The notes beneath the pieces are model-generated. The model did not search any database. It saw only the letters and a program-made list of their open reading frames with translations, and was not told the DNA's origin. A stretch of DNA of 63,656 bases, the filler included, from Vannella sp. (Eukaryota), in NCBI GenBank assembly GCA_023345925.1. It is 6 parts of 6 records of this genome, joined end to end, with 100 filler letters (N's around TTAATTAATTAA, not from the genome) between each part and the next. Parts side by side here need not be neighbours in the genome. Positions count along the whole stretch, not along the records: positions 37,616 to 47,833 come from JAJQQN010000126.1; 5 more parts are not named here. One strand, given 5' to 3'. How positions within the stretch are numbered: position 1 is the first letter of the stretch; every line of letters begins with the position of its first letter. This document shows positions 5,736 through 50,225 of the stretch, piece after piece. Position numbers and translations under genes: made by a program.

Positions 5736-6512
5736 TTAAAAGGTGCATTGAGAGCAGCTTTGAACGTTAGAGCTTCCGGTGAGAGTGGCGCCCACAAGAG
5801 CGGGGCAAGGCTTAGCTCCGCTCTCGCAGAAGCCGTTGTCTCCGTACGTACCGCTATCGTACAAGCAGCAAATGTTTTGAGGAGCCCAACCAATGCGGAA
5901 GAGCTTGACTTTCCCGGCAGGTTGGATGGGGAAGGTCATGGAGAGGCTGAACACTTGAGTAAAGTCAGCGGTTCCCTCAAAGTCGGCATAGAACGCTTCG
6001 ACTGTGGGAATGTAATTAAGACCAAAAGGAGTAACAGGGATTGTGAGTAGGAGAGAACTGCTGCGGCCGTAGACATCAGTGATATTCGCCAAGACTCTGG
6101 CATCGTAATTGGAAGTCGCATCGATAGCGAGGGCGATGGAGTTGCCCAGAGTAAAGTCAATCTTGATGCCAGCGTCGTTCAGACCAGCGTATGTCAGAAC
6201 AGCCTTTCCGGTGCAGGTGGAGCCAAAGGGGCATCCGTCAACAAAGAAGAAGCCGTTGGTCACTCCAGAGGTAGCGAACACGTTGGGAGTGCCAGCGTTG
6301 GTCACGGAGATGTCACGTTGGCCACCGAGGATGGTGGAGTTCTTGAGGGATCCAGAGCTGGTCTGAGGGGGACCAGGACGAGTGTAAACCAGAACGTCTT
6401 TCTGCGTGGCCGAGAAATCGTCAACGGTATACACAGGAGCGAAGGTTCCAGCGTTGGGAATGGCAACAGACACAGCGATCAGGGCCAGGACAACGAAAAG
6501 AGCACGGATCAT
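5736..6512 (-). CDS. Secreted beta-rich protein with C-terminal Cys-rich module
   Basis: Signal peptide MIRALFVVLALIAVSVA; six-Cys tail CCLY...C..CPAL...CSQC; TATAAATAG about 45 nt upstream on the minus strand. Confidence 0.75.
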   Translation of the reverse strand: MIRALFVVLALIAVSVAIPNAGTFAPVYTVDDFSATQKDVLVYTRPGPPQTSSGSLKNSTILGGQRDISVTNAGTPNVFATSGVTNGFFFVDGCPFGSTCTGKAVLTYAGLNDAGIKIDFTLGNSIALAIDATSNYDARVLANITDVYGRSSSLLLTIPVTPFGLNYIPTVEAFYADFEGTADFTQVFSLSMTFPIQPAGKVKLFRIGWAPQNICCLYDSGTYGDNGFCESGAKPCPALVGATLTGSSNVQSCSQCTF

Positions 6513-6550
6513 GAGAAGGAGAAGGAGATGAAACAAACTGTTTCAGGACC

Positions 6551-13564: not shown

Positions 13565-13710
13565 CAACCAACGCCAGAGCGCGAGAAAGTGTCTCAAAAG
13601 TAACACTCCTCTGAAAAAGTCCTCCAAATGGACCGGGAACAATTAGAAAGTGTTTTTTATTTGATTACACTTTTTCACTTTTTGACCACCTGGCAAAGGA
13701 GGCTGACTTG

Positions 13711-18872: not shown

Positions 18873-18972
18873 NNNNNNNNNNNNNNNNNNNNNNNNNNNN
18901 NNNNNNNNNNNNNNNNTTAATTAATTAANNNNNNNNNNNNNNNNNNNNNNNNNNNNNNNNNNNNNNNNNNNN
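18873..18972. other. Artificial contig linker
   Basis: N44-TTAATTAATTAA-N44, giving stops in all six frames. Confidence 0.97.
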
Positions 18973-20254
18973 GCCCTGGAGACGGCTGCATCAGCAGTAG
19001 AGGCCAAGTTGTTGCCTACGCAGACAGAGACATCAAACCAATCTGGGCCGTCAGAGCAGTCACTCTCTTCTTCACCAAAGACTTCGAAGCCCGAGCCCGG
19101 CCCGAAGATGATGACGAAGAGGAAGGAGAAGCTCCTGCTCCTGCTTCCACCACTAAGGACTATCCTATCTCTCAAGTTGTGCATGCTCAGCCCACCCAAG
19201 CTCCACTCCCAGTTCAGTCCCAGCCTTCGCTTCCCAAGTACCCTTCGGACGCTGTCTTCCAGCTGGAGCCAGAGGTGCTCTATGCCATGAACCCAGAAGA
19301 GAGGGAGAAATATTGCCCTCTCCCGTTGTCACGCACCCCGGAGGAGCTCGCCCTGCTGAGTGATGCCCAGAGACGGAACTACCGATCCGAAGTTGAACCA
19401 AACAGTCAATACCATGAGGCCAGGAACAGATTCCTCAAAGGAGAACGTCCCGTTTGGCAAGACTACGAGTACTCTTTCTATCCAAAGGCCGCGTACCCTC
19501 CTGATGTCTACGATCCATTCGTCCCGATGTCTGTCACTGAGTGGAAATGGATGCCAGACTCCGATAAGATCCGAGAGGCATGCCTGAAAGGGCCCAAGGG
19601 TAAAGGAGGGAAGAAACAGGGCAACTCAAACCCACCCACTCCCAAAAAGCAAGTCGAGCAAGTGTACACTGACAGTGTTGAGCGACTTGACATCAAAGGC
19701 AAACCAGGGCATGATGGAATCAGACTTGGGTTTGCCGCTGACGGCAACAAGGCCTACAACAACTACAAACCACGAAATGGCACGGCCCAGGACCAATCGC
19801 CATTTAAGTTGTTTGCTCATGTTGTGAGTGCCACCGGTCTGAAAGGTGCCTCCATGAGAAGTAGGTTGCCCTCTCTCCCCCGATAGATTCTAACATTCTC
19901 ACAGAAACAAGAGATCCCTTTTGTGTCCTTACAACCGAAGATGTCTCCGTCAAAACCAGAGGGTTCATCAACAACCTGAACCCAGTGTGGAACGAACACA
20001 TCTCGATGGGCCTCTACGAGAAAGACGTTGCCAAAGGCGAGCTTGTGGTAGGCATGTATGAGTATTCCGACGTCTTCGCCACAGCCGTACTGCCTCTCTC
20101 TCGAATCCCTCATAACTCGCCGATGGAGTTCGATCTCAAGGTAAGTTGTAGCTTTCATGACCAACTCTGACCACCCTCTTGGCAGCTGACCGTTAGAAGC
20201 GAGAAGAAACCCCAAGGGACCGTCAAGATCTTCCTCCATTTCGGGAGTGCATAA
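18973..20254 (+). CDS. C-terminal C2-domain protein (5' truncated)
   Basis: HVVSATGL, DPFCVL..KTR..NLNPVWNE and GTVKIFLHF; introns near 19862 and 20141. Confidence 0.7.
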
Positions 20255-25231: not shown

Positions 25232-25694
25232 CGCCTCTCAAACTCTGAGCAAATGAACTCTCTTGAGCTCTCCGACCCAAACAGGCCGATCATTCCTTGA
25301 AGAATTCGATCACTACCGACATTAGAACCCGCAGTTCAATGTCGGTAGAATGCAGTTCAATGTGGCTTACATTAAAATCATTAAAATTTTGTTCGTTCCT
25401 ATTCGATGGGGCCTGCAAGAGGGGCCTTTTTGGTTTGGTGGCTCCACTCTTGGGAATGTCTCAGAAGGCAGAAGGAATGAGAGGTCACTTTCCCTCTGCC
25501 TTCTGAACTGGAAGGATAACAACTCCTCAGATCCATGCAGAGAGGATGTCTGAGCGATCTTCCCTTCCACGTCCGTCAACAACAAACGATTAAACTGGGA
25601 CTGGGAATCCAATTCTATCTAACAAAGTAAACATCGTTTCAAGATAACATTTGATTGGGGGAATGGAAACTCATTTTGTTGGCGGCGGGGGCGG

Positions 25695-28600
25695 ATGGAC
25701 ACCTCCAGAGAGGCTAAGTTCCTCTCGGCAATTCGCTTGTCCATATTGAGGCCAGGGGCCAACTTAGGCATAACCTGGGAGTGTTCGGAAAGCGAGAAAG
25801 TGGTGACGGCTTGTGTTCTGCTAGCAGGGGACGCAGCCAGACAGCTCATGGATGCCTTCCTGGAATCTTTGCTTCCAGCAGACCCTGTAACGATCACCAA
25901 CCGTAAGACATAGCCAATTAACCCCAGTCACTCTCTCATCATGAGACAGAGGGAGCACACATCGTTTACTGGTTGGGTGAGCATCCGGTGCGGGTGTCCC
26001 TCCTGCTCCTCAGCGAGACAAAGAAGGAAGTGGGCCATACTTCTGTTCTTGCATATAGTTTACCAAAGACGCTTTCCATGCCTTCGACTGCCCTGCATTT
26101 GAGTGCAGAACTCCAAGAACGTTCCCCTGTTGCTGTCCGCGTGAATGTAGGTCCCTTCTCTTTAGTAACCTGATGCAGCACTCATCGATGAAAGGTTCCA
26201 ACCTATCCAACTCCCCTCTCTCCCAAGGAGCTCGCAGGGAAGAACATATCTGATGTTGAGGTAGCCCGAACCTTCCTTGTGAACCTTTCGGCACCTATGT
26301 CGTTAGTAGCACCGCTATAGACTTGTAAAGTACTGAAGGCGATCATAGATTCTTGCGACCGATGGAGCAGAGCATCCGGATCGCCATTATAGGGGCAATG
26401 AAGAGGCAAAAGAAGGAGTCCCCCTTCCCCAAGATGGGCCGAGCCTCCTTCAGGAAACCCACCATTCGGGGGTCCGTTGAGCTATTTCCCTTAGTACGTC
26501 ACCAACGCCTCCCTTCCACATCCACTGACAGTAAACAGCCAGCTGGGTTTCTCCAAATAGGAACTCCCGACCGCCTAGACGAGATCGTGGCATCGAAGAA
26601 GTTCAATTACCGTCAAGTAGAGGTGAGAATGCCTTCTTCCTGTCCTTATCTCGCTCACATTCGCGTTAAAGGGCACAGATTCACCCTCCTTACTGGGGGC
26701 CTGTCATGCGGGTAACATTGCACTGGCTAGGCGGATCCTTGAACTCGAGGATGGCAAGGTTAACTTCTCAAACTGTCTTTTGGAGAATTTGCCTTCTCAA
26801 CTACTTGATTGGGCGGAACTTGGATTGTTGAAGGAGCTGGATGTGTCAAACAACATGATTCAATTGATCCCATCTCAGCTGAGACACGTTAAGAAAGTCA
26901 ATCTCTCTTATAATCCTCTTCAAGCCCTTCCAGTGGAGCTACGAGATGCCAAATGGAGTCGAGTGAGAAAGTATCTGGACGGAATAGCGTCCCGTGCTGC
27001 CGCTTGGGACATTCAAAAGCTCCTTATTGTCGGAGAAGAAGGAGTTGGCAAAACGGTATGCAGATTTTGCTGTCATTGCACCCTTCTAACATCATGAAGA
27101 CTATTGTCAAGGGACTGATGAGCCGAACCGGTCGAACAGAGGTCACACAAGAGTAAGAACCTTGTTTTTGTTCAATTAGCTAACACAAAGTAGTCTGGCC
27201 ACTGACGGCATAGAAATAAGTGAACTCCGCCTTCAAAGTGACGAGACCTCAGAGTCACTTGTATTCAACATGTGGGATATGGGAGGCCAGACCGTTTACT
27301 ATCCCACGCACCAATTCTTTCTTAGTAGCGGGGCTATTTATCTTTTGCTATTTAACCTTGAGCTTCCTCGATTCACCCGCATCGAGTACTGGCTGAAGCA
27401 GGCCAGACTGTTTCATTCTACAAGGGTTCTGAAGCTTATCCTTGTTGGCACCCATTGTGATTCTGTCCCTCCTGAAAGGCTTTCCAGTGTCACCTCAAAA
27501 GTTATGGAACGCTTCCCCTCTCGCGTGTATCCCCTCGTCAGCCAGGAGATTATGCTGGTGGACTGCAAGACCGGCACTGGCCTTGCAGATCTTAAACGAT
27601 TACTTCTTAAGATAGGCCATCGAGAGCAAATCCAGCAGGTACCTGAAGCTTGGGTGCAGCTGCATGAAATGGTCATTCAAAATCGTCAAGGCGGTAACAA
27701 GTACACTGAATGGGCGACTTACAGTGCGTGGGCCAAAATGTGTGGAGTCCCATCAGAAGACCTTCAGGTTGCCACAAACCACCTTCATATGTCTGGGACT
27801 TTGATTCATCATCCCAGTAAGATGCAACATGATCTCGTGGTGATTTCTCCTCAATGGCTGTCTGATGTTATGGCTTGCCTGATCACTATCCGTCCTACTT
27901 TTGTTGAGCACGGTTATGTAACGATAGACAATCTGGCTATCACTTTCGCCAACTTCCCAGAGGAGATACACGAGAATTTGCTGGAACTCCTTCAACGCTT
28001 TAACATCATTTTCCCTCTGATGAGTGGCCAGAATCGCCGCTACATGATCCCATCCTTGCTTACCACCACGTTTCCAGCCAAACAAGTCATGGAATTCTTC
28101 CCTGCAACGTTACCTCCTGGTATTGCCTCCTTTGGGCGAGTCTTTCGCTATCAGAGTCTACCACTGGGACTTTTTGGACGGGCCATGGTCGCTGTTTTGC
28201 ACCTTCCAGACGTTTCAGGGTTGGTGTACTGGAGAAATGGAATGCTGTTTGAATGTCATCTGGGCAGTGACTCTCTTTGTGTGAGGAGTCAATGCCTTCT
28301 TACTTACGAAGCCACAACATATTCTTTAAGTCTTTACATTCGCTTTCCTTCCTCTTCATTGGCGCTCTCTGTTAAGGTGTGGCGGACTCTCCTGGAAACT
28401 CTTCGCTCACTTGTTGAGTCCTTTTATCCCTCGCTGGCCAACGATATGGAGGAGTTCTTCCCTTGCGTACATTGTATGAGAGCGAGCAAAGATTTCTCTT
28501 CTATCCATTTGTTTCCTCACAGGCGCTGTACCAAGGCTCGAAGTAATGGAGACCAAGTAGTCTATTGCCAAGACATCATTTCCCCCGCCCGGGCCGTATC

Positions 28601-30791
28601 TGTTCACCACTTGGCACCTGATCTGTTCCTCCTTGATTTGGTACGCCTGGATGATTCCAACCTAGAGATTCGCCGTCTGCTTGGGAAGGGATCGTCTGGG
28701 GTCGTTTATCGAGCGACATTAAATGGAAAGGAAGTGGCTGTTAAACAGCCCATTATGATCGAAGGGTTGGATGATCCCCGGTTCTTTCAAGATTTCCAAA
28801 CGGAATCTTACATTATGAGTCTACTGGACCATCCCAATATCGTCCGCTTGTATGGAGTTATGGACAACCCACCACGGATGATTTTACAATATGTGGGAGG
28901 GACTGATCTCTTCCAATTGATTCATCCTGGGGCGAATGAGAACATGATTGGCGACGAAATACCTTCTATTGCCCAAGACGCTCTTTCCTGGCCTCGAAGA
29001 ATTCAGATTGCTCTGGGAATCGCTCAAGGGCTCCACCATATGCAAAGCGTGACTCCTCCTCTTGTTCATCGAGATCTACGCTCCCCAAATATCTTTATCT
29101 CTGAAGAAGGCCAAGCCTTGATTGGAGACTTTGGTCTGGCTCGGCAATATCAAGGCCAATTGGCAGGTCCATTGAAATCCTGGCGCTGGTTGGCACCTGA
29201 AGTTCTGCGGGGGGATGGTAGTGACTTGTACGATGAGAGATCAGACATTTACAGCTTTGGAATTCTCCTTTGGGAGCTTGCAAGTCTTTCAATCCCTTTT
29301 TTTGCAGAAGAGGCTCTCTTCGAGGATACTTTAGCCATCAAGACGGCTATCATACAAGCCGATTTACGGCCTACTTTTCCTTCTCAAACACTCCAAGGGA
29401 TAGCTGAGATTGGCCTGCGATGTTGGAAGACCGATCCAGCGCTGAGACCAACTTCGTCAGAATTAGTCACCCATCTGGCGGAAATGGCAGAGAAACTTGG
29501 AGAATTGATAACAGACTCAACTCCACCGCGTCCAGACATGGAATTTGATGTTTTACCAAACAAAGACCTCGATGAGGAGGTTGTGGTAGAAGATGGAGTC
29601 AAGATCACCCACCAGTTTCAGCATAGGGATGCTAACCGGCGTAATATCTGTTCCCAGATGGTAGAGGATTCTCTTTGGGTTGGTAGCACTGACGGAAAGA
29701 TCACAATCTACGTTATTGATCGAGTTTTGAACGAAGTAGCCGTGCAACAAATCTTGGAGTTTCACCAAGTCAGGGTTACCCAGCTGCTATTGATTGGCAA
29801 AGCTGTCCTCTCATGCGGAGAAGATGGTGTTGTTGCAGTTTGGGATTGCTTGTCGCCGAAACTACTTCACCAGTGGCAGCCCTTCCACATGGGCCATTCG
29901 ATTCTGCTGGCTTGTTCACCCACGGACCTTGCGAATTCTGTTATCTGGACTGTTTGTCCATTGACAGGTGAAGCGGCACTTTGGGAATATGTAAGTCTCT
30001 CTGATGGACGCGAGTACATTCTAACCATTATCAAGGACTACTGCTTCGTCCGAGGGTTCCGGCATAAGTCTCTCATAGGGAGAACAAATCTTTGTGTTTA
30101 TCAGTCATATCTCCTCGCTGCTGGCTGCCTTCCTTCCGTCTCAGTTATTCAAGAGGACTCCACAGAGGCTGACTCGCTAACGGGGCACTCCTCTGCTGTT
30201 CTTCAACTGCTTAGTGCAGATGAGAAACTTTTTACAATCTCACAAACAGAAATGCGAGTTTGGCAAGTCCTAAAAGTCAAAGTCGATAGCTCCAAGAGGC
30301 AGAGCCCCAATTCATCGTGGCAGTGTCTCTTTTCACTTGCATTGACAGATGTGCCAAAGCGCATCGGTATACTGCGATTGAGGAGCAAGTTGGCTATTGG
30401 AACTACCAACGGCTCTCTCTGGTACTTCTTAAAGAGCCCTCGAGGGTATCGACCAGAGCGCGAAATCGAACTTCCTCTTCAAGGAGACGCAGATAGATCT
30501 GTCCGCGGTATTGGAGAAGACTCAAGCCTTCGAGTGTGGGCAATAACCAGCCGATTCGTCTTTGTCATCACAAATATCGCCAAGGTACACCGATGCCAGG
30601 CAGGGGATCACAAGGCATCCTCTGCAAATGACTTCCGCCGAGCTTATCCAACATCAAACGCTCGATCCTTATCTGACACATCCCCATTGCCAGGGAAAAC
30701 AAGGGCGACGTCAGCCACGGGATTCCTTGGGATGGGATTGAGCCGCTCGCAATCTGTGGCAGACTCAGATTCAGATAGTTCCCCAAAATAG
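25695..30791 (+). CDS. Roco protein: LRR-ROC-COR-kinase-WD40-like (LRRK/Pats1-type), multi-exon
   Basis: LRRs (LDVSNNMI, VNLSYNPL), ROC GEEGVGKT / ATDGI / WDMGGQ / VGTH, COR (YWRNG), TKL kinase GKGSSG / HRDLRSPN / DFG / APE, and WD-like tail. The 5' exon structure is approximate. Confidence 0.9.
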
Positions 30792-30826: not shown

Positions 30827-31784
30827 TTAGGACTTGGCAACTCGCTTAATCATGGACATTGAATCGAATCGCCTTCGGAAGACGGGGCCAGGAGCGTTGT
30901 TCATAGAAGGGGACTCCATCACAGGTGCCCCTTCAGGGGCAGGTAAATCATCAATTGATTTGATTTCTCCAGAGCGGATCTGTTTCCTCAGTATCGTTGT
31001 CCGAACCAATTCCTCTTCGTTCAACCCACAACGCTTTTTGATGGAACTTGTTAACTTCCGCGGCTCCACTTTCTCCGAACGTTCAAATCCTTCTTTCTCA
31101 CTGATTGTGGGAAGCCTTGCAAAGAGATTGGAAAAGTCGGGAAGAAGAACGAGATTGGCATACGAGAAGTCTTGAAAGTTGAGTAGCTGATTGATAGAAC
31201 TGGAGATCTTGTTGAATTTAGAGTGGAAGTTGATTTTGTCGTGCTGAATAAAGTTCGGGTTTCCGTCTTCAAGGAAGGTCAAGTCAGTGAGAAACATTCC
31301 CATGAAAGGTACGCAAGGTGGTGTTACTTCCTTCAATTCCTTACGATAGGCGGCGTAATTGTCGTGCATAAGGCGTGCAAGGGACTCTTTCAACAAGAAG
31401 AGCGAATCTCCTAAGGAGTCCCAAGTGATACGGAGGCGGTCAATAGCACAGTTATTCACTGCAGCAATCAAGGCCACGCACCCGTTGTAGTTTTGCAGTC
31501 GATATAAATGAATGCTTATCGTTAAGAAATGTTGGAGTGCCTTCACTCTGTCATCCAAGAGGTCGGCGCCAATTACCTCACGGAGAACAAAGCCTCCCAG
31601 ACGATTGAACTGTGCAGTGATAGCAGCAATGTTAGGTGCTAGAGCAGACCCCTTGCTATAACGCTGTTGGAGGAGCTCAGTCTCTTTGACCTTTTGAAAT
31701 TGCATGTGTTGGAAGACGGTCAGCTGCTCAGCAAAGACTTGCGGGTCGAAGTCACACACTGAAATCTGAACCCGAGGCTCCACT
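30827..31784 (-). CDS. RasGEF (CDC25) domain protein, 5' truncated
   Basis: FAEQLT, LQNYNG, PPCVPFMGMFLTDLTFLEDGNP and INFHSK. Confidence 0.92.
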
Positions 31785-31884
31785 NNNNNNNNNNNNNNNN
31801 NNNNNNNNNNNNNNNNNNNNNNNNNNNNTTAATTAATTAANNNNNNNNNNNNNNNNNNNNNNNNNNNNNNNNNNNNNNNNNNNN
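31785..31884. other. Artificial contig linker
   Basis: N44-TTAATTAATTAA-N44. Confidence 0.97.
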
Positions 31885-32364: not shown

Positions 32365-32448
32365 TTCATGCTTTTGCCACGAATTCTCTGTTCCAAGTAA
32401 AATAGCTATACCGGGGTTTGTTCATTTGCTATTTTATTGGTCCCTTGA

Positions 32449-35400
32449 ATGAGCGGTGGGTGGCCGGTTGGGGGGAAAGGGGTTGTGTTGATGTGGAGCA
32501 GAGGAATGGGCGGGTGATGGCTGGAAGCTTTGTCGTACGGAACAAGGGCGCCCTTACTATTTTAATCTTCGGAGTGGGCAGGCTTCGTGGTCTGTTCCCT
32601 CTCTGGGGACTTCTGTTACGGAGCTTGGTACGTGGGCATGCCCTTTGTAGGCGCGCGACGGTCTCTTTCTTACTCTGCTTTGTAGAGCTGCCTCCAGGAT
32701 GGGAGAAAGCTGTTGACGCAAAGGGGCGCACTTACTTTATCGATCACAATAACCAGAGAACGTCCTGGGTCCATCCTGGTCTCCAAAGGGTTAGTGGGAT
32801 GCGACCCGCCTCTTCTTTGCTCATTCCCCAGCAGCAGACTTCTCCTTTTAGTGTCCAGACTAGTATGGCACCTGCCTCTCAGCCTCAGCCAATAGCAAGT
32901 CCTCAAGCTTGGGCGATTCCCTCCGATAACGTGATGATGTCTGGTTTGAGCCCAGAATCTCAGTCTACCCTTGCTTTTGTAAGCACTGCTGGATCTCCTA
33001 CTGTTAGAAGGTACGAGGATCTCCTCACAGGAAGTCCCAATCAAAGCATGAGCTCTCTTTCATTGCCTCAACAAGAGGGGAATTCGCAATTGTGCGTGTG
33101 CGCTGCCCAGTACACGCTTCAGGATGACTTCAAACAATGCACCAAATGTGGTTCGCAAACTTCTTCTTGGTTTAAGCGCAAAATCACTTGCGCCTGCTGC
33201 TCATTGCCTTTCTGTTCTTCTTGTTGTCGCAAGTCTGCCAAGGGAACTGGAAAAGTGTGCGATGAATGCGACAGGCATCTCAGTGAACAGGATCCCAAGT
33301 GCATTAATCGAGTGTATCCTTGCTTCCTCGACCAGCGGAGTAATCTTCAACGTGGAGCTGCTTTGGAGCTCTATGACCTTCTGACAGGCAATGAGAAGTA
33401 TAGAGAGATCTTGGGCTCGCAGGCCTTCTTTTTTACTGTCCTTTTGGCCACAATGCAAACCTACAACGAGTTCATGAGACTGACTTGCACTCAAATTCTG
33501 ACGGTCATGATTGAAGACAGTGCCAATATCACTCGCTGTGCCACAAACGAAGCACTAGTTCGCTTGCTGTTGTCATTTCTCCGCTCACCAGATGCTCAGT
33601 TGGTTGCTGAAGTCTGCAAGATTATGGTGAAGCTGAAGGAAACTGTAACAGAGCTGAGACCTGACGATGAGCTCTATCGGAATCTTTGCAATAGTGCTAC
33701 CACTGTTGAGATCTCGGTATGTGAGGATGTCACTCGCCTCCTTTTATTCCTTTCCGGACAGGTTGACTTTGCTGCTGTGGCACAGCGGAACTTGGACAGT
33801 GTCTCATTATTATTGACCTTGCTCTCATCTGAAAGCCCGATTGTGGTGTTAAATACGTTAGGCATCCTTCACGTGTTGATTCAAACGCCGTTCAAGAAGG
33901 AACTTTACCAAGCTGGAGGCCTGAACATTATCTTCGCATGTCTGGATCGGTCAGAGATGCGTTCAGAGTATCCTGAAGTGACTTCCGCAGTGTTTAATTG
34001 CCTGAGTGAATTCTTGTTGCGGGGAGATAACACACAAACCTATTGCGAGTATTTTGTAAGCATTAGAGGGGTGAATCAATTGATAACAGTCCTTGGATCT
34101 TGCAACTCTGCCCAAAGTCTCCACATTCTGGCCCTTCTTTACAAGCTCACCTCTTTCCCCTCTCTATCACAAAGTGTGGTTAGCGAGCTGCTTGGAGGCC
34201 TTGGGCTGTTACTGGACCTGTTGAGTACAGATAGAGAAGAGGTTTTGGACTTTTGCTTGGCACTCATACTAGCAATGTGTTCAAACGAGAACATTCCTCT
34301 TCTAGTGAGGGAAACGGGAGGAATCCACCGGATTGTATCGATTCTTTCCTCTACAGACGAGATTCATCAACAGAAAGCGCTTCTCATTCTCGGTCACATG
34401 ATTCATGAGGATGAGGAAAACGCTCAAGCGATGCTCTCTGCCCAAGGCCTCATCATTGTGGTGCGCCTTTTGGAAACGGATAACGCTTTGGTACAAGCAG
34501 CAGCTCTGTCGGTGGTAACAGGTCTCACAGTGTTTCCCAATCTGTTCCCATCTATTGTCAGTGCTCAGTGTATTCCTGCTCTTCTGGGACTCCTCTACAA
34601 TTGCCGTCCCAGTGTAGTAGAGAGTATCTTCACTGCTTTGATTCACTTAGTAGGTGACCCTCTCTGCTTAGAGTCGATTGTGGCGAATGGGAATGTCGGA
34701 TTCCTTCTCGATTACTTCTCTTCGCGCCATTCTACCACTCGGATTCTCTCTCTTCGCCTTCTCGAAGCTATCACAAGACAGGAGAGATACTTGGGCCATC
34801 TCATCCTTGAGCCATGCGTTCTTCCCATATCCAACCTCCTCTCAGACGAAGTGCCTGAAATTCGCCTCCTTGCGGGCTCTTCTCTGATATCTATTCTACG
34901 CCATGCTCCTGCGCTTCGGGAAGGACTTTTATTCTCAGATGCACTGCCAAGCATGGTCCAGTTGCTGCAATCCCAATTCATTGGCTCTGTGCAGCACAGT
35001 GCCGAGCTCCTCTCCTACGTGGCAGAGATTCCTGCAGGACGACATATTTTGATACAATTGGGTATCATGCGGCAGCTCTTCACTATTCTGGCTTCTGAAG
35101 TGATCCTGGAAAATGTGGTAGTTGTGTACTTTGCAGTTCGCATCCTCTCTTCTGTGATTCAAGAGCCGGGACAACTTCAATTGATCATGCAAGAGGGTGG
35201 AATTCCTCGTCTTGTTGACTTGCTGAAAGGACCTGCTGAGATGGCACAGTTAGGAGCTGCAGCGATGATTGGAAGTATTTCTACTTCCAAAGAAAGCTGC
35301 TCGGCCATCATTGAAGCTGGTGCATTGCCTTATCTCTTTCAGCTTCTTGAATCAGACAAGTTACCCTTACTCAAGCAGGCTTGCTTGGCCTTGGACAATC

Positions 35401-37205
35401 TCTCTTTCTCTCGCAAGGTGGTGTCTTATGTTAACTCTCCCGCTCTCCTCCAGAAGCTTATTGCGCTTCTGGAGAGTGATGATTCAGATATTAGAAGAGC
35501 AGGTATTTCTATCATATTCAACGTGTGCCTGGAAGAGGGAAACTGGCAAAGTGCAGTGCGTTTGGGAGGAGTTCCTCTTCTTCTCAAGTTAGCAGGTTCT
35601 GGAAATAGTCACATTCAAATCAAAGCTGCAACAGAGTTAGCAGGCATTGCGGTGGATTCCGAAGGCCGTGATTTGATAATCCAACGAGACGGGCTCATTC
35701 CACTCATTCAAAGCGTTCTCTCTTCACCCAATCACGACGTCCAGGAAAGTGGATTGGCTGTTGTGGCTCTCCTGTCCAGTAACTTGATTTGTGGATCGTC
35801 AATTATCCATTTGGGAGGTTTAGGGCCGGTCGTAAGCTTCTTATCTCCGCAAGATAGTCCACTTTCGCAACATAACGCAGCAATCATTGTTGCCAACCTC
35901 TCAATGAATGCAGGCCATTTGCCTCTCCTTGGAGAGAAAGAAGTGATTTCACGTCTTATTGATTTGAGTGAATCATCAGAAAAGAACTTTTCTCTTCAAG
36001 AAGAGATTAATCGCGCTCTTTCGAACCTTATCAGAGAGGAAAAGAACGCGTTGGATCTCTTTCAGCATAGCCACTCTCTCGAACACTTTATGAATTTATT
36101 TAATGCCTCAGATACCTCGGTCCAACTGAGCGCTTCGGTAGCGTTACAGCACCTTGGAGGAATGGAATCAATTGAGAAAGTCCTTCGAGAGGACCGCCAT
36201 CTTCCTGATGCGCTGGTGCAAATGCTGTCCTCAAAAGACGCAAAGGTACAATCGATTGGCGCTCAAATGCTTGCAAAGCTCTGCCAGTATCCCTCTCCGT
36301 GGTACGAACGGATCATTCCCACTGTTTTGGATCTTCTCAATCATACACAAGAAGGAAGCGAGTTGCTAGAGCCAATCTTAGAAAGCTGCCGCCACCTTTC
36401 TGGCTCTCCCGTCTTGCGTAGGAATTTTGTCACGATGGGGGCGATGGACGCTTTTTGCCTTTTCTTTAATTATCCCGCACCAATTCATGCGATGGTCCTT
36501 CGCTGTATCGCCAACTTGTGTCTCGATGAAGACGGTTGTCGACTCTTTTCAGAAAAGACTCAAACTTTGGGAGAGGTCTTTCGATCCCTCTCCCAAGGAA
36601 GTAAACTTTCTCAAGAAGTTCTGCTTCCGACTCTTCTGGTCATCAAGAACTGCGTTCTTTCAGGAGCTGTCCGCCAGAGTGCTCTTGACCAAGAAGTAAT
36701 TGGGCACCTTTTGGCCCTGATAGCCACTGTTAGGTCTGGAGAGTATCAAAGACTGATATTGGACGTGCTAGAGATCCTCTCTGTTGACAGAGAATGTCGG
36801 CAGAGACTCATCCAGTCCAGGGGAATCCCAATCATTCTCAAGTTACTGGACAACTCTCCGGAAGAGGGCACTTCAATCAGGGTAACTATTCTATTTAAAA
36901 GCCTCTCTTTTGATCAAGATTGCACCGACGCCTTGAGAGAGAGCGGAGTTATTTCCTTCTTTGTGGAGCGAATCCAAGTCGGTGATGATGCCTCCATCAT
37001 TAGCTGCTTGTTTGCTTTGAACAATTTCATGTGTAATGGTACGTTCTAGCGAGTTTCTTTCTATCGTTTGCTCATCCCAATCCTCTCAGATTCTTGCCGC
37101 CTGGCGGTCTCTCGAGAACTTTCCGGAGTCCAGCTTAATCCCCTTCTTCTCTCTCGCAACTCTTTGGTCAGCCTGATGGCGCATAAGCTGAAAGGAATGC
37201 AGTAG
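32449..37205 (+). CDS. WW-WW-FYVE-Armadillo repeat protein (4 exons)
   Basis: Exon ATGAGCG, intron 32456-32501, WW1 GWKLCRTEQGRPYYFNLRSGQASWSVP, intron 32628-32685, WW2 LPPGWE..RTYFIDHNNQRTSWVHP, FYVE-like CxxC..F..K..CxxC..FC..C..VC..C, long ARM array, last intron near 37039. Confidence 0.85.
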
Positions 37206-38315: not shown

Positions 38316-39602
38316 TTATGTGATAATTAGGAAAGTGTCGTGGTCTAATGGGTGAATTGCGGTGGTCTCGCAGTCCTCACAAAGATTAAAGTCAAGGCAA
38401 TGGGCACATTGGAATCGGATGCCGACAATGTCCTTTTGACATTGGGAACAAGAATCATCGTGCACCTTCTGGTTTCTTTTAGCTCTGGTAATGTCCTGTG
38501 CAGTGACACGGGCGTTGAATAGTCCAGCATCGATGACAGGGCGGTAAGGAGCAGCTGCTGACCAATCAAATCCTCTCCCACATCCGCGCTGATCGTTACC
38601 TCCGTGAAAGTTCTTTCCGCATACCATGGCATCACATCCATTCAGCTTTTCGACAACAGTCTGGCAATGGGGACAGTGGCGAGTGTGGGCTGCCTTCCAT
38701 TCTTCGTCCTTCCTCAAATCTTCCAGACGTGCGTTTGCTTCTTGTTGGCGGATCTGATGAGCAGCTCGCTCAGCTTCTCCTTTGTAGCTTTGGCGATCAG
38801 CAGCCTTCCACTGGTTCCAGGCAAGCCTGGCCGCTTCCAATTCTGTGCAACCACCGTAGTAATGGTACTTCTCTCCACACCTGGAGCATAAGCATCCATG
38901 GCACCTGTTGCATTCGATAATGTCAGACTCTTTGTCGGTGTCCAAGATGTTCCAGCTACCACAGCCGGGATAGGGACAGTCACGGCCCCTGGTTCCGATT
39001 TTAGCGATTCTCACATCATGAGTGTAGAACTTAGTGAGGACGTTGTCATCGTGCCTCATATCTGCGATGAGATGGATCTCCTCGTGGGTGAGGGGAGCGG
39101 TGCATTCCTGGTCAGGGCAGGTCAAATGGGCTCCTTCTTGCGCTTGGCTCCTCACTTGGCGCTCCAGGCAAGTGTAACAGAAGGAGTGACCGCATGAAAG
39201 AACGCACATGTGAAGACAAGAGAAGTTCTCGAGGCAAATAGAGCATTCTTGGTCTTCACTGTAGGTCTCGTGATAAAGCCTAAGTCTCTCGTTCTCTTCT
39301 TCTATGAAGCGATACACAGCTAGCTGATTTTCATAATCCATGTCGGATGAATTGGATCCTGGAGGGGTGCAGGAGGAAGAAGTTGCACTAGAAAAGCGTT
39401 TCTGAGGTGGCATTTGAGTCTTCAGCTTGTTGTAGGCTAACTTGAGTTGAACAGTTCCTAATCCAAACATTGTGCATGATTGCACGAACTCTTCTTGGGA
39501 CAAATCTCTCACCAAAGTCTGTTGGTCAATACCCGCAAAGTACTCCGCCACTGCCACCCCAACGTTCGCTTCAAACCACCTAGACAGAGTTTTGGCGTCC
39601 AT
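38316..39602 (-). CDS. RBR E3 ubiquitin ligase with C-terminal ZZ finger
   Basis: RING1 CSICL..CGHSFCYTC..CP, IBR CPYPGC..CNRC..CSRC..H, RING2 CPHC..EKLNGCDAMVC..GCG..FDW, and ZZ CSQC..RFQCAHC.DFNLCEDC. Confidence 0.88.
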   Translation of the reverse strand: MDAKTLSRWFEANVGVAVAEYFAGIDQQTLVRDLSQEEFVQSCTMFGLGTVQLKLAYNKLKTQMPPQKRFSSATSSSCTPPGSNSSDMDYENQLAVYRFIEEENERLRLYHETYSEDQECSICLENFSCLHMCVLSCGHSFCYTCLERQVRSQAQEGAHLTCPDQECTAPLTHEEIHLIADMRHDDNVLTKFYTHDVRIAKIGTRGRDCPYPGCGSWNILDTDKESDIIECNRCHGCLCSRCGEKYHYYGGCTELEAARLAWNQWKAADRQSYKGEAERAAHQIRQQEANARLEDLRKDEEWKAAHTRHCPHCQTVVEKLNGCDAMVCGKNFHGGNDQRGCGRGFDWSAAAPYRPVIDAGLFNARVTAQDITRAKRNQKVHDDSCSQCQKDIVGIRFQCAHCLDFNLCEDCETTAIHPLDHDTFLIIT

Positions 39603-40188
39603 TAGGTAGGGGCGTGTATGAAATGGGTTGTTCTCTTAGCTTGCTTCAATTCCACTTTAACACTTCCCCCCTCAGATCCCCTCCTTTGATTCCCCCTTCA
39701 GAGCTTCGTTTGAGGTTAAGAAACACGTCTGAACTCAGTTTATTCTGCTTTTTATCAGTCACTTGCAGCTAGGACTCTCCTGGGCACTCTTCAACCAAAA
39801 ATGATCATGACTGAGCCTGAACCGTTGTTTGAGAGAAACTCAGTGTGGCAGGGCAAATTGAATTGGTGGAAACCTGGCATCTGCTCCAAGTTATCTAACT
39901 TGTCGAGCTACTGATCACATTCTAGCCTTTCATATGTCTGCATTTATTGCGTCTGCGCGCGGGTTGACCAGACTGCCACCCTGGAGGCTTCATCGAGAAT
40001 GAACAATTCTGTTTGGTGTTAGAATAATGACCCGTAGTTCTCTGGTTCAACCAACTGAGTCCCTCAAGAGTTGAGCTATTTATAGGCAGCGCTATTTTTA
40101 GACTGTTTCGCCGAAATAGATCATTCCATCGAGTCCATTCATTTGCTCCAGTATCCAATCATTTCAGAGACGCCTTCAAGGAGAGTGC

Positions 40189-42537: not shown

Positions 42538-42729
42538 CGATCAAATGACTTTCCCCCTCTCACCTCTCTGTGCGGGTCTGGTTCACTGCAGTTTGAAAGT
42601 CTTCGCAACGATTGGTTCCCTCCTTGGGTTTGGGAACTTGTGCTCCATTCTTTGCTGGGGCCGTGTGCACTTCATGCCCGTTCTCACTTTGGCTCTTCTT
42701 GAGGAGAGAGCAGGACGAGACACTGTAGT

Positions 42730-44262
42730 GTAAGGTTCTTTCTGCTTTCGAGGTACTTCTGGTAGAGATCTTAGTTGGCTGGGCCCTGATCACAGAGACT
42801 TGTATGGCAAGCTGGATGGCGGGACCATTCCAGAAGGTATCAGTAACCTGGTCAACCTGACTATGTTGTAAGGAGTAGTCACATCCACTCTATAGCTCCC
42901 AGTAGTTGACAGGCGATCTGACTTGGATGGGACCTTGTGATCACAGAGACTTGTCTGAGAACCAGCTCAGCGGGCCATCCCAGAAGGTATCAGCAACCTG
43001 GTCAATCTGACACGTTTGTAAGGAGCACTACCATCCACTCTCTGGCTTCCAAGCTTGTTGACAGGCGATCTGACTTGGAAGGGACCTTTTGATCAGAGAT
43101 GTTCGGGAACCAGCTGAGCGGGCCCATCCCAGAAGGTATCAGTAACCTGATCAATCTGACAAGTCTGTAAGGAGCAATCCCATCTACTTGCTGGCTTCAA
43201 TGCTGGTAAACAGGTCTGACTTGGCTGCGCTATTGATCACAGAAACTTGAACCTGAACGAGCTGAGCGGGCCCATTCCTGAGGGTATCAGTAACCTGGTC
43301 AACTTGACTTTCTTGTAAGGAGCAATCCCATCCACTTTGTGGCTTCCTTGCTCCCCTGCAGACGATCTGACTTGGATGCGCCTATTGATCACAGAGAGTT
43401 GAATGAGAACCAGCTGAGCGGGCCCATTCCAGAGGGAATCAGCAACCTGGTCAAGTTGGAGACTTTGTAAGGAGCAATCCCAACTTCTCTCTCGCTTCAA
43501 AGCACGTCAACATGCGATCTGATTCGGTTGATCACAGAGACTTGTCTATGAACCAGCTGAGAGGGCCCATTCCCAGCGGAATCAGCGTCCTGATCAACCT
43601 GACTGACTTGTATGGAGAAATCACACTCACTTTCTGGCTTCCATGCTCCCGACAGGCAATCTGACTTGGAAGGGCCTTTGATCACAGAATCTTGTACGAG
43701 AACCAGCTCAGTGGGCCCATTCCAGAGGGTATCAGCAACCTAGTCAATCTGAGTATAATGTAAGGAGAAGTCCCATCCTCTTTCTGGCTTCAAAGCTTGT
43801 CAACATGCGGTCTGTTGGCTGAGCCTTTGATCATAGATTCTTGGCTGATAACCAGCTGAGCGGGCCCATCCCACAAGGCATCAGCAACCTGATCAAACTG
43901 AAAATGTTGTGAGGAGAAATCCCATCCACTCACCAGCTTCCATACTCCCTAACTGGCGATCTGACTTGTGATAACAGATTTCTCGAACAAAACCAGCTCA
44001 GCGGACCCACTCCAGAGGGTTTTAGTGTCCTGGTCAATCTGACATCAATGTAGGTAACAACCCCACCCACTTTCTGGCTGTACTTCTGGTCTGGGATCTG
44101 ATTTGGCCTTTGATCACAGAGACTTGGACCAGCAGATGAGCGGTCCCAAGCCAGAAGGCGGCAGTTTCTTGGTCCACCTTTAGATGTAAGGACCAAACCC
44201 ATCCACTTTCTGGCTTCAATTTCAATGCGATCTGACTTGGCTGGGCTTTTCCGTTCAAATAG
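42730..44262 (+). repeat. Tandem array of ten single-LRR exons (24 aa each) with conserved introns; period about 140-152 nt
   Basis: Exons 42796-42867, 42947-43017 (71 nt), 43097-43166 (70 nt), 43243-43314, 43395-43466, 43538-43609, 43688-43759, 43837-43908, 43978-44049 and 44120-44185 (66 nt, stop). They encode xLxxNQLSGPIPEGISNLVNLxxL and are flanked by AG acceptors (mostly GATCACAG) and GTAAGG-type donors. Confidence 0.93.
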
Positions 44263-47933: not shown

Positions 47934-50225
47934 TCGCGTTTTCAAAAAGACCGATTGCTCCTCCATTTCCTTCTGCCCAATTTCCAGTCATCTTACAGTT
48001 CTTGACTGTGGTCCTTGACCAGCCCCTAATCGTAACATGTTAGCTCGAAAATTACACCAACAAAGCGACAATCCTTACCCAAGCCAAAAAGCTCCACCAT
48101 CACTCTTCGCTGCGCCATGTGAGATCTAATAGAAAGTGAGCGAACCACGAGGCAATAATGATGAAAACTCACATTCAGCCTCTCAAAATGGGCTTCAGAG
48201 TTTCCATTCAGATGGACCGCGCCACCAAAAACTCCCTGATTATTTCTGTTCCGAGCTGAGTAAGGTACCAGCCGAAAGGAGGAGTAGGTCTTACTCGAGA
48301 GCAGAATCCATCAAAGTAATTTGCCCTAAAACCGCAGCGATACCACCGAGAACGCCTCTGTTTCCCTTGGCTAGAATATTGGTCAAGATCGCAAAAGAGT
48401 CCTTCGATACATGAATGAAGGACCCTGACGGATCCATAGCGGTGTTATTCTCTAATCGCACTTGGTCCATTAAGAGTAGAGAGCTTTTCAGCGACAGTCC
48501 ATTTCCGAGCGAATTGCTCCTCAAGAAAGAAACGTTGGTCAAATTGACCACCGAGAAATCTGCTTGCAAGAGTGATTCCACTTGTTGATCATAAAAAGTG
48601 GTATTTGAAATCGTCAGTATTGTGTACAATACGTCCATCATTGGCCCCAATATACACGGTCCGCTCTCGCAAGTGCCACCACCGAAAAATGAATCACGAA
48701 TGTAAACACTCCCAAAAGTGTCTGCTACCTGCTCTGCTGCTATAATGGGGACTTAATGATGTTAGTTTAAAGCTCAGCAAATGAAAGGGGGAGGGGACAT
48801 ACCATAACAATTGCTAGCACTCACTCTCAAGAATTCTACACTGCAAGCTTGGCCTTTTTCTATTCGAATTAGAGCAGGAGTTAATCCTTGTCCAAACCAA
48901 ACCGTTACCGAGTCAATAACTATGTCCTCTAGTACAATATGGGGCTTGACAGAAGGCTTGACACTAACCAGACTATTCAATCCAACAGACTGCAAATAGA
49001 GCTGTCGGATGTTGAGTTCTGGTCCACTAGAAGCCGAGGAGAATACAGAATTGACAGTGCATAAAGAGATGGAAACATTTTGGCAGAAAGCTTGACCAAA
49101 GAATGAAACAAAAACATCTGCACTTGCTCCACTCATAATGGCACTGTGAAAGTTCAGATGAGAATCTGAGCGAATCAGGGTATTGTGAGATCCTCCTTCA
49201 ATTATAACTTTTTCCAAAAATAATGGACCGCGGGAGCAGATAGAGTAAGGTACGAATATACCGTTAACGTTAATTAATGAGAGACCAGATAGTGAGGTGT
49301 TGCAACCTGGGTCAAGGTAAATGAGAGATATACTCTCTGGATCCAGCAATGAGACCTTGTCTAAAACAATAGATTGAAGAGACACGTCCGCAAGGAAAGG
49401 AGCTGTTTGGAAGCTATTAAATGCGACCAAATTGTCCGTTGCGGAAGTGCTTGTGAATGTCCAGTTGAAAGCCCGCGCGACGGAGAACCTTTGGATGGAG
49501 AGTGCATTAGTAAATTTGCCTCCGTTGACTGACAATCCTCCTAAAACAATGCTGGTAACGTTGTTCAGTTGGAGAATCTCACCACCAGATCCTCCCTTCG
49601 TTGTTAACCCGAAAACTCCAACGGAAGAGTCGAGAGGGCTTCCATTGGCCTCCACAAACGCGCCTGTGGTAGCACAATCGTCAAAAGTCACGTTATCAAT
49701 CTGAAAGTCCCCTCCTACAACAAAGATGAGCAAAAGTGAAGCAGCAAGAGACTTGGCAACTAACCATTCAAGTCAACTTGGACCAAACTTGCTGTTGAGG
49801 CCACACATGTCACCCTGAATCCCTTAAAGCTCGCCTTTTCTATCAATGTAGAGAAGCTCAGAGAGCCTTCACCTCTCATGATCAAAGTTGTCGCGTTCGC
49901 CCCCACCGAACTGAGGAAGTCAGTTCCCTTTCACACTCAGAAGGGCTTACTGGAGTGAGAGAGGACATGGAATGAGTATTGGTTCCGCAATACTGTAGTC
50001 TCCGTGGTCAACAAGGAGAACCGGGAGGTCTCCAGACTCACGGCTCCACACCGAGCAAGCTGTCGCCACACCTCCCTGTACAGTGGAGCACGCTGTGTCC
50101 CAAGAACCACCGCAAGTACCATTCACTTGACTCCCTGCTGAAACATAGAACATCCTCTCCTCCCCCTTCACAACAGCACAGCAAAGGCAAGCCCAAAGCC
50201 CCAACGCCACCCAGAAGCGGGCCAT
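47934..50225 (-). CDS. Secreted/surface pectin-lyase-fold (beta-helix) protein, 3' truncated, multi-exon
   Basis: Signal MARFWVALGLW, FYVS..CGGSWDTACSTV motif, and N/S/F-rich beta-helix repeats with GG..F..N patterns. Confidence 0.65.

What the first reader, a model, noticed from the sequence alone, without database searches (positions are those of the whole stretch)
42730..44262. Orphan array of single-LRR exon cassettes with hypervariable ligand face: candidate receptor-diversification system
Seen: ten consecutive exons each encode one 24-aa plant-type LRR and are split at the same codon position (phase 2-2). Seven are exactly 72 nt. The scaffold NQLSGPIPEGISNLVNL is almost invariant, while the residues of the exposed beta-strand xxLxLxx, which straddles the splice junction, differ in every unit: TML|DLSEN, TSL|NLNLN, TFL|ELNEN, ETL|DLSMN, TDL|ILYEN, SII|FLADN, KML|FLEQN. 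The array sits in about 2 kb between a divergent carboxylesterase start (42537) and a convergent stop (44531). I see no signal peptide, TM, kinase or ROC exon attached. Established: these concave-face positions set LRR ligand specificity; LRR cassettes build lamprey VLRs; one-LRR-per-exon shuffling is described for brown-algal ROCO genes. Inference: this may be a cassette library used by exon skipping, recombination/gene conversion or trans-splicing to diversify pathogen or prey receptors in a protist. Because the junction splits the variable strand, each new exon pairing makes a new binding surface.
Basis: partly seen in the sequence, partly recalled or inferred. Interest (0 to 1): 0.88.

Follow-up and report, generated by a model that had tools for sequence, protein, structure and literature searches.

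The report
Decaying single-repeat exon array in protist
A protist (likely an amoeba) carries ten tandem copies of a small exon, each for one leucine-rich repeat, whose predicted binding-face residues changed several times faster than the rest; three copies are broken and no receptor parts are recognisable, so it is most likely a decaying member of a fast-evolving gene family whose layout is already known from brown algae and ciliates.

Summary
The array is real: ten LRR exon units with homologous 66-80 nt introns. Seven are 72 nt and phase 2-2; exons 2 and 3 are frameshifted, exon 10 has a stop, and a last intron leads to no exon. The five exposed-strand codons evolve about four times faster than silent sites while the scaffold is conserved (omega 3.5-4.9 vs 0.2-0.3); a codon-specific rate rise fits equally well. 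Intron alternation and exon-intron co-divergence point to germline tandem duplication. No cap, signal, membrane or kinase part was recognised. One database fragment, P0399, suggests a second gene with this layout. No spliced product was found; no RNA or genome was available. The same register, exon size and selected sites are published for Ectocarpus type II LRR exons, where no shuffling was found (PMC3341825). Best reading: a truncated, decaying member of a diversifying LRR family, probably amoebozoan. A cassette library is unsupported. This scan noted such arrays before in other protists and fungi.

The parts
42545..42729 (+). Possible leader exon: open frame in phase with exon 1, ATGs at 42545 and 42674; no Pfam match, no N-cap match; unproven
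42730..42795 (+). Intron 0 (66 nt, GT-AG), homologous to the array introns (56-69% identity)
42796..42867 (+). LRR exon 1, 72 nt, intact, divergent first repeat (12 of 17 scaffold residues)
42947..43017 (+). LRR exon 2, 71 nt, frameshifted; stop in the shifted frame
43097..43166 (+). LRR exon 3, 70 nt, frameshifted; 88% identical to exon 2 (youngest pair)
43243..43314 (+). LRR exon 4, 72 nt, intact
43395..43466 (+). LRR exon 5, 72 nt, intact
43538..43609 (+). LRR exon 6, 72 nt, intact
43688..43759 (+). LRR exon 7, 72 nt, intact
43837..43908 (+). LRR exon 8, 72 nt, intact
43978..44049 (+). LRR exon 9, 72 nt, open but with changes at two core positions
44120..44185 (+). LRR exon 10, 66 nt, degenerate, in-frame TAG
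44186..44262 (+). Trailing intron-like copy with no LRR exon behind it (array breaks off)
42868..44119 (+). Nine internal introns of 69-80 nt, 63-85% identical to each other, with a branch-point-like CTRAY 13-25 nt before the acceptor in 8 of 9; introns 3, 5, 7 and 4, 6, 8 form alternating groups

Best explanation
This is a tandem array of ten exon-plus-intron units, each exon coding one plant-type leucine-rich repeat, and it is most likely the truncated, decaying remnant of one member of a fast-evolving LRR gene family of a protist (likely an amoebozoan). The unit likely multiplied in the germline by unequal crossing-over, partly in two-unit blocks; because every intron splits the same Leu/Ile codon, gains and losses of units keep the frame (shown from the sequence). 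While the gene was active, selection likely kept the scaffold and drove apart the five exposed beta-strand residues, as expected of a binding surface for variable ligands (rate contrast shown; selection and ligand binding inferred). Deletions then broke exons 2, 3 and 10, and whatever followed the repeats was likely lost. Diversity would be generated over evolutionary time across gene copies, not by programmed assembly in the cell.
For: Units are homologous over exon and intron. Introns 3/5/7 versus 4/6/8 is the best of 10 possible splits (0.065 vs 0.007 for the next; pattern seen by eye before the test), and introns 3, 5, 7, 9, 10 group at bootstrap 79. Exon distances (face codons removed) follow those of the upstream intron (Mantel r 0.42, p 0.004 for exons 2-9; r 0.51, p 0.012 for exons 4-9). 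Scaffold omega 0.22-0.33, below 1 at p 1.5e-4; face omega 3.5-4.9, above 1 at p 0.0005-0.004, stable when any one face site is dropped, 0 of 245 neutral simulations as extreme. Exons 2 and 3 differ in amino acid at 3 of 4 scorable face codons but 1 of 16 scorable scaffold codons, so they diverged as coding sequence before they broke. 3 of 10 exons are broken, the last intron has no exon, and no cap or tail was recognised. P0399 aligns colinearly across intron, exon, intron and exon (E 2e-10 against the window), which suggests another family member. Brown-algal ROCO loci are about half pseudogenes and Tetrahymena arrays are ascribed to unequal crossing-over (PMC3341825; PMC6564038).
Against: Six consecutive exons (4-9) are intact with good splice sites, and an in-phase open leader exists, so a short LRR-only product is not excluded. 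The frameshifts could be assembly errors in a repeat; reads could not be checked. A model with neutral face codons and a fourfold higher local rate fits as well as omega above 1 (lnL -323.38 vs -324.28). The exons do not repeat the alternation of the introns (that split ranks 3rd and 8th of 10) and the correlation with the downstream intron is not significant (p 0.054 and 0.13), which leaves room for exon-level conversion. The non-LRR part of P0399 matches the array only weakly on its own (E 0.007; an unrelated window site scored E 0.001). The amoebozoan placement rests on best hits of one gene at 62-66% identity, with Diphylleia and Rigifila close behind.
Confidence: 0.6

Rival explanations
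1. The locus is a live LRR-only gene: a short leader (ATG 42674) is spliced to exon 1, the two broken exons are skipped or are assembly errors, exons 4-9 follow, and the protein ends in exon 10. It would act as a small soluble binding protein or decoy with one main isoform.
For: Leader frame open and in phase; skipping exons 2 and 3 keeps the frame; 7 of 10 exons intact and under purifying selection; LRR-only genes with such exons exist in Saccharina and Tetrahymena (PMC11378527; PMC6564038).
Against: No N- or C-cap recognised; exons 2 and 3 keep strong splice sites, so default splicing would hit a stop in exon 2; exons 9 and 10 have lost core residues; a homologous intron continues beyond exon 10; no spliced product among the listed hits although three joined units would score 146 bits against a listing floor of 120.
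Confidence: 0.2
2. The gene is expressed and alternatively spliced: skipping of units gives many LRR combinations, each new junction making a new exposed strand, as reported for two Ectocarpus ROCO genes.
For: All units are frame-compatible and any pairing gives Leu or Ile at the split codon; 7 distinct 3' halves and 7 distinct 5' halves among the intact exons; splice variants with different LRR content are reported in Ectocarpus (PMC11378527).
Against: No RNA evidence; near-uniform strong splice sites and introns of 69-80 nt give no sign of regulation; no Rfam match or long inverted repeat of the Dscam docking-selector type; seven intact exons allow only 21 forward junctions; frame compatibility follows from tandem duplication alone.
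Confidence: 0.1
3. The array is a silent donor library: its exons are copied by gene conversion or ectopic recombination (or trans-spliced) into complete LRR receptor genes elsewhere in the genome.
For: Orphan layout; diversified faces; P0399 suggests a related array with a similar intron that could offer homology; intergenic recombination among LRR loci is described in Ectocarpus, and LRR-only loci were proposed as a reservoir (PMC3341825; PMC11378527).
Against: No recipient or further unit in the 63.6-kb window, and none on the opposite strand; the ROCO gene in the window has unrelated LRRs; Ectocarpus exons of this same register showed no sign of shuffling; purifying selection on the scaffold fits past expression in place; occasional conversion among paralogues would not make it a dedicated library.
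Confidence: 0.07
4. A targeted mutational process, not selection, randomises the codons next to the splice junction.
For: Third positions of face codons differ at 0.71 versus 0.34 in the scaffold and 0.28 in introns; a neutral, fourfold-faster model fits as well.
Against: 0.71 is within the range expected under selection alone (0.61 +/- 0.09; 14% of simulations as high); the Leu and Asn codons between the variable ones are the same in 5 of 6 and 6 of 6 units, silent positions included; intron ends next to them are conserved.
Confidence: 0.03

Closest known systems
Ectocarpus type II LRR exons of LRR-kinases and eight other loci (Zambounis et al. 2012, PMC3341825; parts 2-5 of 7 of the text read)
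   Same: 72-nt, 24-residue exons with the same boundaries (start xLxxNxL, end LxxL), so the variable strand is split by the intron; positive selection at sites 3 and 23, two of the five face sites here; mean omega about 5.5 at selected sites.
   Different: Those are mostly intact kinases in a brown alga, with a different scaffold consensus; no inactivated exons were found there, whereas 3 of 10 are broken here; no kinase is attached here.
Brown-algal ROCO genes with type I LRR exons (PMC3341825; PMC11378527, abstract and sections 11 and 15 read)
   Same: One LRR per 72-nt phase-2 exon, diversifying selection on the concave face, dead exons among live ones, many pseudogenes, LRR-only loci.
   Different: The intron falls after the variable strand, not inside it; ROC-COR follows; inverted exons, inter-locus recombination and splice variants are documented there and were not seen or not testable here.
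[quoted passage not shown] 2019, PMC6564038; abstract and sections 25 and 27 read)
   Same: Protist; tandem equal-size LRR exons with phase 2 introns of clonal origin; unequal crossing-over proposed; many without membrane anchor.
   Different: 30-residue repeats of another LRR class; thousands of genes; associated with a LINE-like element; mostly purifying selection.
Plant LRR receptor ectodomains (MIK2, FLS2, ERL1, TDR)
   Same: Same 24-residue LRR class with the GxIP loop: all 25 solved-structure matches at E up to 1e-5 carry plant receptor-kinase or receptor-like names.
   Different: They have caps, and membrane or kinase parts. The one-repeat-per-exon layout of ERECTA and SERK genes is recalled; my searches did not give the intron position.
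Lamprey and hagfish VLR loci (PMC3308329, passages read)
   Same: LRR modules with a variable concave face.
   Different: VLRs use hundreds of cassettes over about 2 Mb around an incomplete germline gene, copied somatically by a conversion-like process with CDA1/CDA2; here ten spliceable exons in 1.4 kb and no incomplete recipient gene in the window.

Membership tests
Plant-type 24-residue LRR | Repeat LxxLxLxxNxLxGxIP with period 24 | tested here: met
   Seven intact units show it; profile hits plant receptor structures and bacterial and protist proteins with the same repeat.
One-LRR-per-exon array (Ectocarpus type II register) | 72-nt exons starting xLxxNxL and ending LxxL, frame-symmetric introns | tested here: met
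   7 of 10 units against the published consensus. Splicing is inferred from GT-AG and branch-like motifs, not from RNA.
One-LRR-per-exon array (Ectocarpus type II register) | Diversifying selection at exposed sites 3 and 23 | tested here: met
   Both are among the five fast sites; caveat that a local rate rise fits equally.
Brown-algal LRR-ROCO | ROC-COR tandem downstream of the LRR exons | tested here: not met
   No such exon between 44186 and the convergent stop; the window's ROCO lies 12 kb upstream with its own stop.
Brown-algal LRR-ROCO | Signs of active shuffling: inverted LRR exons, inter-locus recombination | tested here: inconclusive
   No unit on the - strand or elsewhere in the window; inter-locus exchange needs the genome, which is not held.
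Brown-algal LRR-ROCO | Splice variants with different LRR content | not testable with these tools
LRR receptor kinase / receptor-like protein | Signal peptide, N-cap, membrane helix, optional kinase | tested here: not met
   No Pfam match in three upstream frames or the downstream frame; a cap profile from 120 of 161 fetched cap segments matched only exon 1 itself; the leader from ATG 42674 has only a short hydrophobic stretch.
Agnathan VLR | Incomplete germline gene flanked by hundreds of cassettes | tested here: not met
   Ten units, no incomplete recipient gene in the window; the rest of the genome is unseen.
Agnathan VLR | Somatic assembly by conversion with an AID/APOBEC deaminase | not testable with these tools
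   Needs clone-level sequencing and the genome.
Tetrahymena 90-bp exon LRR genes | Exactly 90-bp exons | tested here: not met
   Exons are 72 nt; it works alike but is not a member.

The most novel reading that the evidence does not exclude
An amoeba keeps promoter-poor, cap-less arrays of spliceable single-LRR exons with homologous introns as a shared pool, and builds a variable repertoire of prey- or pathogen-binding proteins by exon skipping and intron-guided recombination between arrays; because the intron cuts the binding strand, every new pairing creates a new binding surface. This would be a combinatorial receptor system in Amoebozoa, where my searches found none described.
Probability: 0.08. 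Interest if true: 0.75.

Novelty: new member of a known kind. Interest (0 to 1): 0.3.

Why it matters
As it stands it extends a known pattern (one LRR per phase-2 exon, tandem growth, fast-changing binding face, frequent decay) to a probable amoebozoan; four full-text searches found no report of it in amoebae, though the library lacks most subscription journals. It adds to the case that exon-modular LRR families arise repeatedly in protists that face changing microbes. If RNA or clone data showed real mixing of exons, it would be a compact test case for the open question, raised for brown algae, of whether unicellular eukaryotes generate receptor diversity combinatorially.

Tried and rejected
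No whole genome is held and no sequencing runs were available, so family size, read support for the deletions and splicing are untested. Exact DNA patterns: exon pattern 0 matches in metagenome, prokaryote genome and viral contigs; intron pattern 0 in viral contigs and 1 in metagenome contigs, L001, which is a chance match in a gene without LRRs. Profile searches with the exons returned mostly long LRR proteins, the named ones bacterial, algal or plant (150 of 5,813 listed; 120 of 2,143; 120 of 134); none reached more than 14 of 17 scaffold residues or carried the array's signature. Only 7,991 candidates were scored, so absence is weak evidence. N-cap in the upstream frames: rejected for lack of a match. 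Link to the ROCO gene at about 25,650-30,791: rejected, since it ends 12 kb upstream and its LRRs do not match the unit profile. Link to the convergent membrane-protein gene: opposite strand. Structured RNA or docking-type pairing: no Rfam match; inverted repeats short or due to the repeat itself. A three-unit periodicity in the exons, suspected from shared residues, was not borne out by nucleotide identity. No structure was predicted: single 24-residue exons are too short to be informative. Look-ups in this scan's notes by place and by sequence returned nothing.

Full report
Observation. The region 42,730-44,262 holds a head-to-tail repeat of about 149 nt (TRF: 42,787-43,968, 7.9 copies, 73% matches, score 946). 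Parsing at the conserved acceptor and donor motifs gives ten exon-like units: 42796-42867, 42947-43017, 43097-43166, 43243-43314, 43395-43466, 43538-43609, 43688-43759, 43837-43908, 43978-44049 and 44120-44185. Seven (1, 4-9) are 72 nt and open, with one base before and two after 23 whole codons, that is phase 2-2. Exon 2 is 71 nt and runs into a stop, exon 3 is 70 nt, exon 10 is 66 nt with TAG. The introns are 66-80 nt, GT-AG, and homologous: 63-85% identity among the internal ones, with a branch-like CTRAY 13-25 nt before the acceptor in 8 of 9. One homologous intron precedes exon 1 and another follows exon 10 with no exon behind it. A profile of the unit finds 11 hits at E 5e-12 or better, all on the + strand within 42,741-44,250, and nothing else in the window below E 1.3. 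The nearest assembly gaps are more than 10 kb away. Splicing is inferred from sequence; no RNA was seen.

Surroundings and host. The array lies between a divergent carboxylesterase (PF00135, E 4e-108) and a convergent gene for a membrane protein with no Pfam match at E 0.01. Upstream of the donor at 42,730 the frame in phase with exon 1 is open for 65 codons with ATGs at 42,545 and 42,674; it has no Pfam match and does not match a cap profile built from 120 of 161 cap-like segments of the fetched LRR proteins. Downstream no acceptor opens a recognisable tail. A ROCO kinase (Roc, COR, kinase, beta-propeller) ends at 30,791 and has its own, unrelated LRRs. The window's SHMT has no close named relative: the best named EukProt hits that I looked up are Stenamoeba (66%), Protostelium, Diphylleia, Rigifila and Paradermamoeba (62-63%), with Planoprotostelium at 62% (the top-scoring plant record covers only 48% of the query). 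An amoebozoan is likely, not established; no tree was built.

How the array grew. Exons 2 and 3 (88%) and introns 1 and 2 (85%) are the youngest pair. Introns 3, 5, 7 and 4, 6, 8 form alternating groups: that split is the best of 10 (0.065 against 0.007 for the next), and introns 3, 5, 7, 9, 10 group at bootstrap 79 (I saw the pattern by eye first). This is what duplication of two-unit blocks by unequal crossing-over leaves (inference). Exon distances with face codons removed correlate with those of the upstream intron (r 0.42, p 0.004; r 0.51, p 0.012) and less clearly with the downstream intron (p 0.054; 0.13). The exons do not reproduce the alternation (that split ranks 3rd and 8th of 10), and their tree has little support, so some conversion is not excluded.

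Selection. In the seven intact exons the five exposed positions of xxLxLxxN (sites 22, 23, 1, 3, 4) have amino-acid-changing divergence of 0.62, against 0.15 at the other sites, 0.40 at their silent sites and 0.28 in intron interiors; the set ranks 1 of 2002 among sets of five non-core sites. A fixed-sites codon model gives face omega 3.45 (7 exons), 4.90 (6) and 4.50 (5), each above 1 at p 0.001-0.004, with the rest at 0.26-0.33. On a star tree face omega is 3.9-4.8 and the rest 0.22-0.23 (below 1 at p 1.5e-4); dropping any one face site leaves 4.4-5.5; 0 of 245 neutral simulations reach the observed statistic. Against this: letting the face codons have their own overall rate with omega 1 fits as well (rate 4.1, lnL -323.38 vs -324.28), so what is shown is a fourfold codon-specific acceleration. 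Selection is the better cause because the Leu and Asn codons between the fast ones are unchanged in 5 of 6 and 6 of 6 units, and third-position divergence at the face (0.71) lies within what selection alone gives (0.61 +/- 0.09). The data are five codons in five to seven short paralogues; recombination can inflate such tests. That these positions form the ligand face is established knowledge for this LRR class (all 25 solved-structure matches carry plant receptor names; PMC3341825), not tested for this protein. Exons 2 and 3 differ in amino acid at 3 of 4 scorable face codons and 1 of 16 scorable scaffold codons, so they diverged as coding sequence and broke later, or the breaks are assembly errors.

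Relatives. Exact DNA patterns found nothing related in metagenome, prokaryote or viral contigs (the single match is chance). Profile searches listed 150 of 5,813 and 120 of 2,143 proteins with the same repeat class; none is closer than 14 of 17 scaffold residues. A spliced product of three units would score 146 bits with the profile, whose list ends at 120 bits, so no such product was among the 7,991 candidates scored. The protein collection does hold this organism's SHMT (P0161, 100%). Among short proteins (120 of 134 listed), P0399 is a gene call that reads through intron, out-of-frame exon, intron and in-frame exon, colinear with 43,655-43,909 (40% over 85 columns, E 2e-10). Degenerate back-translation is compatible with the end of intron 6 at 27 of 33 bases (3 of 300 shuffles as good) and allows an acceptor, a 69-nt LRR-like exon with no forced stop, a donor and a 62-nt intron before a 72-nt exon (my reading of the base sets). 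Its non-LRR part alone is only a weak match (E 0.007). It is not encoded in the window, so a second gene of this layout probably exists, in this organism or a relative; like the SHMT it is recorded from two ENA contigs, which does not prove the same organism.

Comparison with what is known. Zambounis et al. (PMC3341825; parts 2-5 of 7 read, supplements not seen) describe two kinds of 72-nt LRR exon in Ectocarpus. Type I exons of ROCO genes end after the variable strand and show inverted copies, recombination and many pseudogenes. Type II exons start xLxxNxL and end LxxL, the register seen here; their sites 3 and 23 are positively selected, and no sign of shuffling was found. Teng et al. (PMC11378527; abstract, sections 11 and 15) report phase 2, selection on the concave side, splice variants in two ROCO genes and LRR-only loci proposed as a reservoir, and note that somatic recombinants have not been reported. 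Xiong et al. (PMC6564038; abstract, sections 25 and 27) describe thousands of Tetrahymena genes with 90-bp phase-2 LRR exons made by unequal crossing-over. VLR loci differ in scale and mechanism (PMC3308329, passages). The ERECTA/SERK exon layout is recalled and was not confirmed. Four searches for amoebozoan cases found none (listings only). Earlier notes of this scan describe similar arrays in other protists and fungi with the same verdict; they are leads, not evidence.

Verdict. The fast-changing face is real. The most likely reading is a truncated, decaying member of a diversifying one-LRR-per-exon family built by germline tandem duplication (0.6), ahead of a live LRR-only gene (0.2), combinatorial splicing (0.1), a donor library (0.07) and targeted mutation (0.03). 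It is a new member of a known kind, in a lineage where I found it not described. Interest 0.3.

Noticed in passing
window about 25,650-30,791 (+): ROCO gene: a few LRRs, then Roc, COR-A, COR-B, kinase and a beta-propeller; its LRRs do not match the array's unit.
   Followed up: partly
window 44,531-about 46,800 (-): Convergent gene for a type I membrane protein with a hydrophobic helix near the C-terminus and no Pfam match at E 0.01; one stretch resembles the start of a von Willebrand D domain (recalled motif, untested).
   Followed up: no
window 32,406-37,049 (+): 1,547-codon open frame with a WW domain, a weak FYVE-like finger and many armadillo repeats.
   Followed up: no
window 38,316-39,635 (-): RING-IBR protein with a C-terminal ZZ finger.
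   Followed up: no
window 10,931-13,642 (-), 48,774-49,772 (-), 5,736-6,542 (-): Long open frames (903, 332 and 268 codons) without a Pfam match at E 0.05.
   Followed up: no
window 42,868-44,119: Intron interiors differ less (0.28) than scaffold silent sites (0.40 by site counting; 0.34 at third positions); may reflect splice constraints in short introns or gap placement in the alignment.
   Followed up: partly
window about 18,927-18,974 and 31,784-31,828: Two runs of N (scaffold gaps), both far from the array.
   Followed up: no
P0382, P0453, P0374, P0477, P0479: Several other short database entries look like gene calls reading from an intron into a single LRR exon at the same codon position, in unrelated AT-rich DNA; this intron position seems widespread.
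   Followed up: no
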